A stretch of 64,000 nt of DNA from the NCBI RefSeq assembly GCF_048403405.1, contig NZ_CP183129.1; one strand, written 5' to 3'. Position 1 is the first letter of the stretch, and the number at the start of each line of letters is the position of its first letter. The position numbers were made by a program. Of this stretch, positions 36,401 through 39,400 are shown piece after piece. The DNA comes from Escherichia coli (GTDB lineage Bacteria > Pseudomonadota > Gammaproteobacteria > Enterobacterales > Enterobacteriaceae).

Positions 36401-39400
36401 CTTCACGGACGTAACGCGAAACGGCAGAGGCCTGAGCATGAACCTGCACCACGGAAGGCTCATAAATAACAACCGTGACGTCGCCAGGATTAATCAGCGT
36501 TTGTTTGACGGATGTTTTACGCGAAATAACATCAATAATCAGGCTCATAATGGCATTCCTGATAAATGGCGCATATCCTTAGCGAGTCCATTTATCTAAA
36601 TAAGACAAAGGTAATCACTTAACAACGAGGCATACCTGATATTAATAATGGCAGGATTATTTCAAGTCGGGTAAGTCGTTGTATAAGCCCTGTTTAATTC
36701 CCGCTAATGGAATAAGGTTATTCACCGCAGCGGCATAATTTACGGCGGCGACCCAGCCATCATAATTGGCATTTATTTCAGCCGATTGCGCCTGAAAGAC
36801 ATCTTGCTCGACGGTTAATAGATCATTCAGACTGCGTTTGCCCAATTTATATTCATTTTGGTACACATCTCGCGTTTTGTGCGCACTTTCGGATTGTGCT
36901 AAACCGGCTTCTTCGCGACCCCGTGCGCCTGTCCAGTTGGCATATGCCACAGACGCTCGTTGCAGCACATCCAGTTTTGCCTGTTCGACCTGCGAGGCAG
37001 AGATTTTTTGTTGCCCTTCGGCCTGTTGCACCTGGGCAGAAACCGCGCCGCCCTGATACAGCGGCGCGTTAACGTTCAGTTGTAGCTGATCATCCCAATA
37101 CGAGCGGTCGCTGGTCTGGTAGCGCGTTTTGCCCCCCTGAATACTCAGCGTTGGCCAGTATTGCGCTTTCGTTTTTTCCACGCCGTACTGTGCTGACTGG
37201 CGTAAGTTTTCTGCCGCCAGCACCAGCGGGATGGACTGGTAATCAATATTTTTCAGCGATACCGGCTGCTCGGCTAATTCAGCAGGTGGCGCGGCTATCG
37301 CCTCCGGCTGTACGCCAGTGAGCACCGCCAGTTGCGCTTTGGCGCTTGCCATCTGCGCCTGATATTGCTCCAGCGTTGAGCGCATTCCGGCAATGCGCGT
37401 CTGGGCCTGTAATTCATCCGACGACGAGTTCAGGCCAGCGTTAGCACGCAATGCTGCCATGTTGTAGACGTTTTCCAGCGAGTGAATATTGCGTTGAGCC
37501 GCATAGCACAAAGCCTGATAACGACTGACTTCCATATAGGCAGTTGCCGTTTTCTCTGCAACATCGGTTAATGTTGCCATCAATTTAAAGCGGTAGCTGT
37601 CACGGGCGGCAGTTTGCAGTTTGATATCGTTGTTAGTTTTACCAAAGTCATACACCAGCTGTGTCAGGGTTATGCCATACGAAACGTTGTTATCAAGCCT
37701 GCCACTGGAGTCCGTTTGTCGGGACGGTCCCGCATTGCCGGTTAATCCAACGTGCGGATACCAGGCACTTTTGGCTTCATCAATTTGCGCTTCGCCAATA
37801 CCTATCTGCGCCGCCTGTTGAGTGACGTCGGGATTTCGCGCAAAGGCGCGTAATATACTTTCCTGTAAAGATAATTGGGCAACTGGCGTTACCGCTGGGG
37901 CATTCGCCCATTGTGGCAGCGGTGCAGCAATTGCAGCTTCTCCCATCACCATAAAACTTATTAAAAAAATAAACCCATTATTTTTACGGCTTTTAAACTG
38001 GAATCGCGCCATAGATAAGTCACTTCCTTCCAGGTCATTATTTTAACTGGTTTTTATAACCAGTCTCATTTTATTAAGAAGGGTAATAACTTGTGCATCT
38101 CTTTTGTCGATCATTGATATTGGCAAAGAAATGCAGCTAAAAAGCTTATACGTTATTTATTTAGAATACACTACGACTTTTAGATTACCATCATACACAT
38201 TAAGAATAATCCACGGTAATAAGTGATTAGCATCACAGATTTATCGCGTATATATCATTTTTTTGTGACTTATTTATTAAAGGAATAAGAAAGGTAATTT
38301 GAATTAAAGACAAAGGCGCAGTACAGGCTGTACTGCGCACAGAGAGGTGTTATACGGTTTTATTGCGCTTCATGACCATTGCCACAATAAGGCTGAGTAA
38401 GATTGCACCAATAATCCATATCAACGCACGGCTGCCCTGGGACCACAGGCTGTAGATAAAGCCAACGATCACCAACAACATCACCAACGTACCAACGATA
38501 AGAATCGGCAACGAGGCGTGAATATCATGACGCAGGCGGATCGCCACCACAAACACCGCCAGATAGCAGATCAAAAAGGTGGCGCTGGCAACGCTGGCGA
38601 GTGAGCCTAAATTCAGCGCCGCCGTCATCAGCATAATCAGCACCACGACAATGATGTTGCCCCAGGTACTCTGCCGCCACAGGGATTTATTCATTAGCTT
38701 CGGCAGTTCGCGTTCGCTGCCCATGTTGTCCATGATGTTAAACACGGCGAACAGGTTCGCGTTGATGGCTGAAGCCGTCGCCAGTAAAGCGCCGATGACG
38801 ACGATCACATAACCCACATGCCCGAGCAGCGGAGAAGCTGCCTGCGCTACGGCGGTATCGGCATATTTTTCTAACTCTAATGCCGATACATCGCTAAGCA
38901 AAACCAGCGCCAGCGAGATATAAAGCAACGTGGTAACGCCAATCGCCACCAGAAACGCCCGTGGCATAATGACCTGCGGATCTTTCACTTTATCCGCCGC
39001 GTTCGCCATCATGCCAAAGCCCGCATAGGCAAGGAAGGTTATCCCGATACAGGAGAAGAACGCACCGGAGCTGGGGGGCGCAGAGACGGAAATATGCGCC
39101 GGTTGCAGCGACCAGACACCTGCAATGATCAGCAATAACAGGATCATCATTTTAATGCCGACGAGGATCACTTCCAGCCGCCCTACCGCATGGTTGCTTA
39201 AGGAGTTGAAAAGCGTCATCACCGCAATGATCCCCAACGCGTAGAGCAATATAAGGTGCTCCTCCTGACTGCCTTCATGCAAAAACTGCACGGCATAAGC
39301 GCCAAAAGCACGGGCGACCATGGCGATGCTCACCGCCAGCGTCAACAGGTACAATAACGAGAGTGCCAGCGAAAAGACGCCGTTGCCTAATCCGCGACGA

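What the first reader, a model, noticed from the sequence alone, without database searches (positions are those of the whole stretch)
38013..38315. AT-rich ~300 bp leader upstream of the T1SS operon
The region between the ybaT terminator hairpin and the OMP start codon is strongly AT-rich with multiple A/T tracts. This is typical of horizontally acquired, H-NS-silenced promoters. Expression of the giant adhesin may therefore be repressed under laboratory conditions and need a specific anti-silencing signal.
Basis: inference. Interest (0 to 1): 0.4.

Follow-up and report, generated by a model that had tools for sequence, protein, structure and literature searches.

The report
Known promoter of E. 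coli adhesin operon
The AT-rich stretch is real, but it is the already studied promoter and 144-base leader of the E. coli O-island 28 adhesin secretion operon, which is switched on in stationary phase in ordinary media, and whether H-NS silences it has not been tested.

Summary
Observation confirmed. Window 38013-38315 has 29% GC against 55% for the window. It is one of only three patches this AT-rich in 64 kb. Its A/T tracts are no more frequent than that composition predicts.

The window is E. coli. The stretch is the regulatory region of the O-island 28 (OI-28) type I secretion and giant adhesin operon (tolC28/z0608/ecs0540, siiEA, hlyB28, hlyD28). It differs from strain EDL933 at only 5 of 340 positions.

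Published work already covers it:
- Cappable-seq maps start sites 144 and 126 nt upstream of the ATG (window 38156 and 38138, minus strand). P1 gives no signal in exponential LB and is strong in stationary phase.
- z0608 expression is 55-fold RpoS-dependent.
- PhoB activates the operon.
- RstA binds a box that is present unchanged at 38293-38306.

So only about half of the stretch is leader, and the operon is not silent in the laboratory.

The operon is GC-rich (59.5%). It looks ancestral at this locus, because K-12-type strains carry a deletion scar there.

I found no H-NS data for this locus. H-NS binding to the isolated ~430-bp AT-rich patch remains plausible but untested.

Verdict: low interest, already known.

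The parts
38316..38338 (-). ybaT terminator hairpin (GCGCAGTACAgccTGTACTGCGC) followed by an interrupted T tract. The K-12-type deletion endpoint (38321/38322) lies inside its right arm.
   Evidence: -16.1 kcal/mol, z -4.1. for the deletion endpoint.
38293..38306 (-). RstA box TAATTCAAATTACC, at -294..-281 from the ATG and about -150..-137 from TSS P1.
   Evidence: Exact 14/14 match to the box that EMSA showed to be needed for RstA binding in EDL933 (PMC12758282). Poorly conserved in E. whittamii and E1V33.
38265..38293 (-). Predicted Pho-box-like 11-bp repeats CTTTCTTATTC|CTTTAATAAAT|AAGTCAC. The best 18-mer matches the Pho box consensus at 14/18. This is an inference, not a mapped site.
   Evidence: P about 0.02 for a 14/18 match; P about 0.002 when a -10-like hexamer 9-11 nt downstream is also required. 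PhoB dependence of ecs0540-0544 is reported by Yoshida 2010, read only through citations.
38249..38254 (-). Predicted -10 hexamer TATATA, 10 nt downstream of the Pho-like repeat. It would belong to a putative PhoB-dependent distal promoter with a start near -230. Inference only: no start site was seen here in Pi-replete media.
   Evidence: GATATATA is invariant in three Escherichia lineages. No TSS here in the 8 Cappable-seq conditions.
38222..38237 (.). CRP-like palindrome TGTGAtgctaaTCACT (9/10 of the core), centred about -73.5 from TSS P1. Candidate site, untested.
   Evidence: The half-sites are invariant while 4 of the 6 spacer bases differ in L004 and L007. Chance of such a site is about 0.01-0.02 per 350 nt.
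38163..38168 (-). -10 hexamer TATTCT of promoter P1. There is no -35 at normal spacing: TATGAT at 38190-38195 lies 21 nt away.
   Evidence: bTSSfinder entry in PMC10469882 supplement 10. BPROM prediction in PMC12758282. Sequence read. Lies in an invariant 20-nt block.
38156..38156 (-). Primary transcription start P1 (an A, 144 nt upstream of the ATG), induced in stationary phase.
   Evidence: Cappable-seq TSS 579751(+) in NZ_CP008957.1, mapped onto the window (no indels; 5 substitutions in 340 nt)..
38145..38150 (-). -10 hexamer TATAAG of the secondary promoter P2.
   Evidence: Invariant block ACGTATAAGCTTTT.
38138..38138 (-). Secondary transcription start P2 (an A, 126 nt upstream of the ATG), called only in stationary M9.
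   Evidence: Cappable-seq TSS 579769(+).
38013..38156 (-). The 144-nt AT-rich 5' UTR of tolC28. It holds invariant blocks at -141..-113, -91..-54 and -51..-4 and one fully diverged block at 38104-38124.
   Evidence: substitutions are clustered: P = 0.007 for the longest run, 1e-4 for the top three runs. No Rfam family. Fold z = -2.0.
38046..38064 (-). Small hairpin ACUGGUU-auaaa-AACCAGU in the 5' UTR, about 15 nt upstream of the ribosome-binding site. It is weaker in related species, where pairing is kept only through G-U pairs.
38023..38031 (-). Ribosome-binding region GGAAGGAAG, with two GGA motifs.
   Evidence: Read from the sequence. Lies in the 33-nt invariant block -36..-4.
36657..38012 (-). 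tolC28 (z0608/ecs0540), the TolC-family outer membrane component and first gene of the operon.
   Evidence: NCBIfam TIGR01844, 414.9 bits against a cut-off of 225.
15771..36548 (-). siiEA, the giant BapA/SiiE-related adhesin (6925-aa ORF), substrate of the T1SS.
12433..15767 (-). hlyB28 (ABC permease/ATPase, 13605-15767) and hlyD28 (adaptor, 12433-13608). The hlyD28 stop codon overlaps the cueR start codon (ATGA).
   Evidence: NCBIfam TIGR03375 at 837 bits and TIGR01843 at 328 bits.
12533..38321 (.). The 25.8-kb segment missing from K-12-type E. coli. It includes the whole AT-rich region.

Best explanation
The AT-rich stretch is the control region of the O-island 28 type I secretion and giant adhesin operon (tolC28-siiEA-hlyB28-hlyD28). 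That region has already been studied experimentally.

The proximal 144 nt (38013-38156) is the 5' UTR. Transcription starts mainly at the A at 38156, from a promoter with a TATTCT -10 and no usable -35. A minor start lies at 38138, 7 nt downstream of a TATAAG -10.

The distal ~190 nt carries activator sites. The RstA box at 38293-38306 is established. A Pho-box-like repeat with its own -10 (38249-38293) and a CRP-like palindrome (38222-38237) are my predictions.

The promoter is nearly off in exponential growth and comes on in stationary phase. It is RpoS-dependent, whether directly or indirectly. It is boosted by phosphate limitation through PhoB and by RstA in a Ca2+-responsive way.

The AT-richness is the ordinary composition of an activator-dependent enterobacterial promoter plus UTR. 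It stands out here only because the flanking genes are unusually GC-rich. H-NS may bind the patch, but nothing so far requires it.

Basis of each step:
- Shown by published experiments: the two start sites, growth-phase induction, RpoS dependence, RstA binding, PhoB dependence.
- Inferred here: the positions of the Pho-like and CRP-like sites, and the idea that RstA acts on a distal promoter or from long range.
For: - Identity of the locus: 100% match to E. coli TUM14771, and only 5 substitutions in 340 nt against EDL933. The four operon genes are named in the RefSeq annotation; the three transport genes (tolC28, hlyB28, hlyD28) also score above the NCBIfam cut-offs.
- Start sites: Cappable-seq TSS 579751 and 579769 for the tolC28 gene (RS02775). 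The P1 signal is 0 / 4.1 / 0 / 2.4 in the four exponential conditions and 64.7 / 53.0 / 31.3 / 9.2 in the four stationary ones (PMC10469882 supplements). Both starts lie exactly 7 nt after a -10-like hexamer.
- RstA: the box is present unchanged at -294..-281. The paper reports ChIP-qPCR, EMSA and a lacZ fusion (PMC12758282).
- RpoS: z0608 is 55-fold and z0609 20-fold RpoS-dependent (PMC2907692). Expression rises 11- to 17-fold on entry to stationary phase (PMC2241611).
- PhoB: regulation as cited in PMC3978041 and PMC12846084.
- Conservation: substitutions among three Escherichia lineages are clustered. Invariant blocks cover the P1 and P2 -10 elements, the CRP-like half-sites, the first Pho-like repeat and most of the UTR.
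- Generality: homologous T1SS OMP genes in 25 other loci all have a more AT-rich 300 nt upstream, except the Pseudomonas locus L031. Upstream GC is 0.25-0.39 in most and up to 0.48, against 0.44-0.60 in the genes.
Against: - The start sites come from EDL933, not from this strain, and only from Pi-replete LB and M9 conditions.
- The RstA box lies about 140-150 nt upstream of P1. That is too far for a classical class I or II activator, so the simple activator picture is incomplete.
- The Pho-like site (14/18) and the CRP-like site (9/10, centred at -73.5 rather than the usual -71.5 or -72.5) are predictions made after looking at the sequence.
- The second Pho-like repeat and the RstA box are not conserved in E. 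whittamii and E1V33.
- The P1 -10 lacks the C at -13 that is typical of sigma-S promoters, so the RpoS dependence may be indirect.
- H-NS involvement has not been excluded.
Confidence: 0.85

Rival explanations
1. H-NS (with StpA or Hha) nucleates on the AT-rich patch and silences the promoter. RstA and/or PhoB, bound far upstream, work mainly as counter-silencers. Sigma-S RNA polymerase escapes the repression in stationary phase.
For: - The patch has 29-32% GC over about 340 nt and lies between GC-rich genes.
- P1 gives no signal in exponential LB.
- The RstA box sits about -143 from the mapped start, a position hard to reconcile with direct contact to RNA polymerase.
- Weak antisense or orphan start sites occur inside the patch, at 579617(-) and 579708(-). 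AT-rich, H-NS-prone DNA often shows this (PMC3923964).
- From general knowledge, not tested here: many sigma-S-dependent promoters are H-NS-repressed for sigma-70, and H-NS silences other RTX and T1SS operons (review PMC12846084).
Against: - No H-NS ChIP or hns-mutant data exist for this locus in anything I could search.
- The patch is only about 430 bp. The 25-kb operon body has 59.5% GC, so a long silencing filament is unlikely.
- The H-NS motif TCGATAAATT does not occur in the region within one mismatch.
- A-tracts and TpA steps are not above the composition expectation.
- The operon is not a recent AT-rich acquisition.
- It is well expressed in stationary-phase LB without any special signal.
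Confidence: 0.3
2. The long conserved 5' UTR is itself the main regulatory device, acting after transcription. Possible routes are CsrA binding at the GGA-rich ribosome-binding region and hairpin, pairing with a small RNA, or a structure that masks the ribosome-binding site. On this view the AT-richness reflects an unstructured, protein- or sRNA-accessible leader.
For: - UTR blocks at -91..-54 and -51..-4 are invariant across lineages that differ by about 19% over the intergenic region as a whole.
- Two GGA motifs lie in the ribosome-binding region, and a hairpin lies about 15 nt upstream.
- The leader folds slightly better than shuffled sequences (z = -2.0).
Against: - No Rfam family matches.
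- The hairpin is weak, and in E1V33 and E. whittamii it folds no better than shuffled sequence (z = -0.2 and +0.1).
- Only two diverged sequences are available, and they share most of their changes, so there is no real covariation test.
- The known regulation (RstA lacZ fusion, induction at the TSS level) is transcriptional.
Confidence: 0.15
3. The AT-rich stretch is functionless spacer or an insertion scar at the edge of a genomic island, and the operon is read through from glsA-ybaT.
For: The T tract after the ybaT hairpin is interrupted (CTTTGTCTTT), so some read-through is conceivable.
Against: - Independent start sites have been mapped inside the stretch.
- A cloned fragment drives lacZ.
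- Conservation is blockwise.
- The stretch lies inside the segment deleted in K-12-type strains, not at an insertion junction.
Confidence: 0.02

Closest known systems
PtolC28 / ecs0540 regulatory region of O-island 28 in EHEC O157:H7 (EDL933, Sakai)
   Same: It is the same locus. It lies between ybaT and the TolC-family gene, has the same 337-nt length, and differs at 5 of 340 positions. The RstA box, both -10 elements and both mapped start positions are identical.
   Different: - The strain here is not O157 (TUM14771-like).
- Here siiEA is one 6925-aa ORF, whereas in EDL933 an internal stop splits it into z0609 and z0615.
- Three substitutions fall between the hairpin and the ATG, at -192, -109 and -56. 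None touches a named element.
Salmonella SPI-4 siiA-F promoter (T1SS plus giant adhesin SiiE), an H-NS-silenced and activator-dependent island promoter. Recalled from memory, not tested here.
   Same: Both control a T1SS with a giant Ig-repeat adhesin related to SiiE/BapA. Both have an AT-rich upstream region and conditional expression that needs dedicated activators.
   Different: - SPI-4 is an AT-rich island relative to its genome, whereas this operon has 59.5% GC.
- The gene order differs: here the OMP gene comes first.
- The regulators known here are RstA, PhoB and RpoS. H-NS is not documented.
Pho regulon promoters (pstS, phoA type)
   Same: There are 11-bp-phased CTnTnAT-like repeats, ending 10 nt upstream of a -10-like hexamer and standing in for a -35. 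PhoB dependence has been reported for the operon.
   Different: The match is only 14/18. The second repeat is not conserved in sister species. No start site has been mapped at this position, because the available TSS data come from Pi-replete media.
H-NS / HlyU-type counter-silenced RTX promoters (Vibrio rtxA1)
   Same: An RTX or T1SS operon with an AT-rich upstream region and an activator that binds far upstream of the start.
   Different: H-NS binding is demonstrated in the Vibrio case and not here.

Membership tests
OI-28 PtolC28/ecs0540 regulatory region | Lies between ybaT and the TolC-family first gene of the tolC-siiEA-hlyB-hlyD operon, with near-identical sequence to EDL933 | tested here: met
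   335/340 identical with no indels. for the operon genes.
OI-28 PtolC28/ecs0540 regulatory region | RstA box TAATTCAAATTACC at -294..-281 | tested here: met
   14/14 match at 38293-38306, compared with PMC12758282.
OI-28 PtolC28/ecs0540 regulatory region | Transcription starts at -144 and -126, each with a -10 hexamer 7 nt upstream | tested here: met
   The sequence elements are identical. The start sites themselves were measured in EDL933 (PMC10469882), not in this strain.
H-NS-silenced (xenogeneically silenced) promoter | Markedly more AT-rich than the genome | tested here: met
   GC 0.29, against 0.553 for the window and 0.534 for the flanking core genes.
H-NS-silenced (xenogeneically silenced) promoter | Belongs to recently acquired, AT-rich foreign DNA | tested here: not met
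   The operon has GC 0.595. It sits at the same locus, with divergence like that of core genes, in E. whittamii and E1V33. K-12-type strains carry a deletion scar.
H-NS-silenced (xenogeneically silenced) promoter | Extended AT-rich tract (kilobase scale) able to support a silencing filament | tested here: not met
   The patch below 40% GC spans only about 37900-38330.
H-NS-silenced (xenogeneically silenced) promoter | High-affinity nucleation motif (TCGATAAATT-like) | tested here: not met
   No match within one mismatch in the region. The 8/10 matches found are no better than expected for AT-rich DNA.
H-NS-silenced (xenogeneically silenced) promoter | Silent under standard laboratory growth | tested here: not met
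   Published TSS and array data show strong stationary-phase expression in LB and M9. There is no P1 signal in exponential LB.
H-NS-silenced (xenogeneically silenced) promoter | H-NS occupancy in vivo and derepression in an hns mutant | not testable with these tools
   No dataset covering this locus was found.
Pho regulon promoter | An 18-bp Pho box (two CTGTCAT repeats 11 bp apart) in place of the -35, about 10 bp upstream of the -10 | tested here: inconclusive
   Best site CTTTAATAAATAAGTCAC matches 14/18, with TATATA 10 nt downstream. P is about 0.02 alone and about 0.002 jointly, but the test was chosen after seeing the site. The second repeat is not conserved.
Pho regulon promoter | PhoB-dependent induction on phosphate limitation | not testable with these tools
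   Reported for Sakai ecs0540-0544 by Yoshida 2010. That paper is not held in the library and is known here only through citations.
CRP class I-activated promoter | TGTGA-N6-TCACA site on the correct helix face upstream of the start (-61.5, -71.5/-72.5 and so on) | tested here: inconclusive
   A 9/10 core at 38222-38237. The half-sites are conserved while the spacer has diverged. The centre, about -73.5 from P1, is 1-2 bp off the canonical positions. No cAMP-CRP data.
Known cis-regulatory RNA leader (riboswitch, attenuator, thermometer) | Match to a curated RNA family, or a stable conserved structure | tested here: not met
   No Rfam match: the only hits have E above 1 and are eukaryotic families. 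Leader fold z = -2.0. The hairpin is not better than shuffles in sister species.

The most novel reading that the evidence does not exclude
An isolated ~430-bp AT-rich patch in front of an ancestral, GC-rich (59.5%) 25-kb adhesin operon acts as a self-contained H-NS nucleation site. On this reading it keeps P1 off in exponential growth. RstA bound about 143 nt upstream of the mapped start, and PhoB next to it, would then act as counter-silencers rather than as classical activators, with sigma-S polymerase bypassing the block in stationary phase. That would be H-NS control of a promoter that is neither recent nor part of an AT-rich island.
Probability: 0.25. Interest if true: 0.35.

Novelty: already known. 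Interest (0 to 1): 0.18.

Why it matters
OI-28 is needed for early EHEC adherence and gut colonisation (PMC12758282), so knowing when its promoter fires matters for pathogenesis. However, the region's role, two of its regulators and its start sites are already published.

What this check adds is modest:
- It puts the RstA box, the BPROM prediction and the Cappable-seq start sites on one coordinate frame. That shows RstA binds about 140-150 nt upstream of the active start.
- It proposes positions for the PhoB and CRP sites.
- It shows that the 'island' is an ancestral operon deleted in K-12-type strains. This weakens the xenogeneic-silencing rationale.

The H-NS question stays open and is easy to test.

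Tried and rejected
- H-NS data for the locus. I searched the papers for z0608, z0609, z0615, ECs0540-0542, OI-28, and H-NS with ChIP and O157/EDL933. None reports H-NS at this locus. The held supplementary files of the Sakai H-NS ChIP-chip paper have no entry for it. The CFT073 H-NS ChIP-seq cannot help because CFT073 lacks the operon. The Ler-regulon paper has no supplement held.
- Yoshida 2010, the primary PhoB paper, is not in the library. Its promoter map could not be checked.
- Known RNA families: none found.
- RfaH ops element (GGCGGTAGnnTG): no match at 80% or better in the region.
- IHF, Fis, Fur, Lrp, ArcA, OmpR and PhoP consensus scans gave only weak matches, or single matches expected in AT-rich DNA. 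I did not pursue them.
- The generic sigma-70 scan found 2 sites against 2.4 expected, and neither is a mapped promoter. It was uninformative.
- My first guess, that the main promoter is the distal Pho-like one with a ~230-nt leader, was set aside for Pi-replete conditions once the Cappable-seq start at -144 was found. I keep it only as a candidate PhoB-dependent promoter.
- Footprinting beyond Escherichia failed. Upstream regions of the homologues in Enterobacter, Budvicia, Rosenbergiella, Trabulsiella and Pseudocitrobacter cannot be aligned with this one and lack the CRP-like site.
- The 40-aa ORF on the plus strand (38104-38226) was treated as a chance ORF.
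Full report
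**1. Observation**

The stretch 38013-38315 has 29.0% GC. The full intergenic region 38013-38349 has 32.3%, and the 64-kb window has 55.3%. Only 0.27% of 303-nt windows are this AT-rich. They form three patches, at about 473-1045, 9843-10457 and 37889-38443.

On the minus strand the stretch is bounded by two features. Upstream is the ybaT stop codon with a strong hairpin at 38316-38338 (-16.1 kcal/mol, z = -4.1). Downstream is the ATG at 38012 of a TolC-family gene.

The 'multiple A/T tracts' exist: there are seven runs of 4 or more bases. Composition-matched shuffles give 6.0 +/- 2.2 (P = 0.39), and TpA steps are not enriched either.

**2. What the locus is**

The window matches E. coli strain TUM14771 at 100%. 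The minus-strand genes downstream of the stretch are:
- a TolC-family OMP (36657-38012);
- the 6925-aa 'BapA-related adhesin SiiEA' (15771-36548);
- an LssB-type ABC permease/ATPase (13605-15767);
- a HlyD adaptor (12433-13608).

All of these except the adhesin score above the NCBIfam cut-offs. This is O-island 28 of EHEC O157:H7, with genes z0608/tolC28, z0609 plus z0615, z0634 and z0635, also known as ecs0540-0544. The intergenic region has the same 337-nt length as in EDL933 and differs at 5 of 340 positions with no indels. It is present in 958 of 5426 complete E. coli genomes at 95% identity or more.

**3. What is already published about this exact region**

- **RstA.** Niu et al. 2025 (PMC12758282) cloned the region in front of lacZ. 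They showed 3- to 5-fold lower expression in a rstA mutant, about 6-fold RstA ChIP-qPCR enrichment, and EMSA binding that needs the box TAATTCAAATTACC at -294..-280. They also showed RstA-dependent stimulation by Ca2+. That box is present unchanged at window 38293-38306.
- **PhoB.** Yoshida et al. 2010 reported that ecs0540-0544 is a PhoB-activated operon induced by phosphate limitation. I could read this only through citing papers.
- **RpoS.** In EDL933, z0608 is 55-fold and z0609 20-fold RpoS-dependent in stationary LB. The wild-type signal is log2 10.8 (PMC2907692).
- **Growth phase.** In Sakai, ECs0540 and ECs0541 rise by log2 3.5 and 4.1 at the transition to stationary phase in glucose minimal medium (PMC2241611).
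- **Start sites.** Cappable-seq in EDL933 (PMC10469882, supplements 6, 8, 10, 11) lists two start sites for the tolC28 gene (RS02775; ATG at 579895 in NZ_CP008957.1).
  - 579751 was called in exponential M9 and salt and in all four stationary conditions. Its signal is 0 / 4.1 / 0 / 2.4 in exponential LB / M9 / acid / salt and 64.7 / 53.0 / 31.3 / 9.2 in the matching stationary cultures.
  - 579769 was called only in stationary M9.

**4. Anatomy on one coordinate frame**

Mapping the EDL933 positions onto the window gives the following layout.
- P1 starts at the A at 38156 (-144). This is exactly 7 nt after TATTCT (38163-38168).
- P2 starts at the A at 38138 (-126). This is 7 nt after TATAAG (38145-38150).
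- P1 is the promoter that BPROM predicted in Niu et al.. It has no -35 at a workable spacing: TATGAT lies 21 nt away. That fits an activator- or sigma-S-dependent promoter.

So the 5' UTR is 144 nt and the remaining ~190 nt is upstream regulatory DNA. Relative to P1, the RstA box lies at about -150..-137.

I found two further candidate sites.
- **Pho-like repeats.** A chain of 11-bp-phased repeats, CTTTCTTATTC|CTTTAATAAAT|AAGTCAC (38265-38293), ends 10 nt upstream of TATATA (38249-38254). The best 18-mer matches the Pho box consensus at 14/18. The chance of that is about 0.02, and about 0.002 jointly with the -10, in first-order Markov resamples. This is the canonical Pho-promoter geometry. 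It would give a start near -230 and would place the RstA box at about -64..-51. No start site was seen there, but all eight Cappable-seq conditions were phosphate-replete.
- **CRP-like palindrome.** TGTGAtgctaaTCACT (38222-38237) matches 9/10 of the core, with a chance of about 0.01-0.02 per 350 nt. It is centred near -73.5 from P1.

Both sites are inferences.

**5. Comparative evidence**

A scan of one genome per species with the TolC28 protein returned 31 loci.

Two are orthologous: Escherichia sp. E1V33 (L004) and E. whittamii (L007). In both, glsA-ybaT lies directly upstream. Nucleotide identity to the window is 88-91% in ybaT, 86-91% in tolC28 and siiEA, and 81% in the intergenic region. 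The region as a whole is therefore not unusually conserved.

Its substitutions are clustered, however. The longest invariant run is 33 nt (P = 0.007) and the top three runs sum to 81 nt (P = 1e-4).
- Invariant blocks: -36..-4 (ribosome-binding region), -91..-64, -171..-152 (P1 -10 and upstream), -141..-128 (P2 -10), -271..-258 (first Pho-like repeat), GATATATA, and both CRP-like half-sites. Between those half-sites, 4 of the 6 spacer bases differ.
- Diverged parts: the RstA box region, the second Pho-like repeat, and a 21-nt block of the UTR (38104-38124).

In more distant genera the upstream regions cannot be aligned. They are also AT-rich (GC 0.25-0.39 in most and up to 0.48, against 0.44-0.60 in the genes; the Pseudomonas locus L031 is the one exception, with upstream 0.477 against gene 0.454). 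They lack the CRP-like site.

No Rfam family matches. The leader folds only slightly better than shuffles (z = -2.0). The small hairpin at 38046-38064 is not supported in the sister species.

**6. Is it 'horizontally acquired'?**

The operon has 59.5% GC (siiEA 60.5%), against 53.4% for the flanking core genes. Only about 430 bp (37900-38330) is AT-rich.

Every island-free E. coli genome listed in the searches matches the window up to 38322 on the ybaT side and from 12532 on the cueR side. In CFT073 the two matches are separated by a single base.

Reading K-12 directly shows what remains at the junction. The left arm of the ybaT hairpin is joined to the last ~97 nt of hlyD28, which now carries a frameshift, and this runs into the cueR start codon. 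RefSeq annotates that piece as an incomplete, frameshifted gene lacking its N-terminus. The intact HlyD protein aligns to the very end of the TIGR01843 profile.

The K-12 state is therefore a 25.8-kb deletion (window 12533-38321) of an operon that was already at this locus in the common ancestor of these Escherichia lineages. The AT-rich region is part of the deleted segment, not an insertion junction.

**7. The H-NS hypothesis**

Nothing I could search reports H-NS occupancy or an hns phenotype for this locus. The CFT073 ChIP-seq is uninformative because CFT073 has the deletion.

In favour:
- the composition of the patch;
- no P1 signal in exponential LB;
- the long-range position of the RstA box;
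- weak antisense or orphan start sites inside the patch;
- the general link between sigma-S-dependent promoters and H-NS (general knowledge, not tested here).

Against a classical xenogeneic-silencing picture:
- the patch is short and isolated in GC-rich DNA;
- no high-affinity H-NS motif lies within one mismatch;
- there is no excess of A-tracts;
- the operon is ancestral;
- it is clearly expressed in ordinary stationary-phase cultures.

I put the probability that H-NS is a significant repressor here at about 0.3.

**8. Verdict**

The stretch is the known PtolC28/ecs0540 regulatory region plus a 144-nt 5' UTR. 'Silent in the laboratory' and 'horizontally acquired' are not supported. H-NS remains untested. 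Novelty: already known. Interest: low.

Noticed in passing
window 12433-12532 and 38322-38338; L035 690-800; L002 28487-28615: O-island 28 is not an insertion in O157. K-12, CFT073 and every other island-free E. coli genome listed in the searches share one 25.8-kb deletion (window 12533-38321). It leaves half of the ybaT terminator hairpin fused to a frameshifted 97-nt 3' remnant of hlyD28 directly in front of cueR.
   Followed up: yes
window 12433-12436 and about 12596: The hlyD28 stop codon overlaps the cueR start codon (ATGA). The EDL933 cueR start site (604687, seen in all 8 conditions) lies 160 nt upstream, inside hlyD28. That position falls in the segment deleted in K-12, so K-12 must transcribe cueR from a different start.
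   Followed up: partly
window 15771-36548: siiEA is one uninterrupted 6925-aa ORF in the window. RefSeq nevertheless annotates the identical TUM14771 gene as a frameshifted pseudogene, and the EDL933 copy as having an internal stop (hence z0609 plus z0615).
   Followed up: no
window about 36848 (minus strand): Cappable-seq lists an internal start site at 581059 in EDL933, at nt 1164 of tolC28, induced in stationary phase (signal 16.8 / 6.4 / 11.5 / 3.4). It could be a separate promoter feeding siiEA. The 108-nt tolC28-siiEA spacer (36549-36656) also has only 37% GC.
   Followed up: no
window 9843-10457: A second patch that is equally AT-rich (minimum GC 0.284) lies upstream of, and overlaps the start of, a YadA-family autotransporter adhesin gene (10333-11349, plus strand). 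It sits between cueR and ybbJ, in a variable segment flanked by REP-like repeats.
   Followed up: no
window 473-1045: The third and most AT-rich patch of the window (minimum GC 0.251) lies next to the 3' end of the ybbP ORF (990-3404, minus strand). I did not examine it.
   Followed up: no
window 38199 and 38290 (plus strand): Weak orphan or antisense start sites inside the AT-rich region in EDL933, at 579708(-) and 579617(-). 579617(-) was called in one condition only.
   Followed up: partly
L007 4001-5272: In E. whittamii Sa2BVA5 the tolC28 orthologue is broken. The ORF ends after 219 aa, and the two BLAST segments leave query nt 628-697 unaligned and overlap in the subject, which implies an ~80-nt deletion. 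The operon may be decaying in that strain.
   Followed up: partly
L003 and L032: Contigs labelled as a Collinsella sp. MAG and a Bacillota MAG carry this E. coli locus, at 99% and 57% protein identity respectively. L003 includes the intergenic region nearly unchanged. These are most likely binning contamination in the metagenome-assembled genomes.
   Followed up: no
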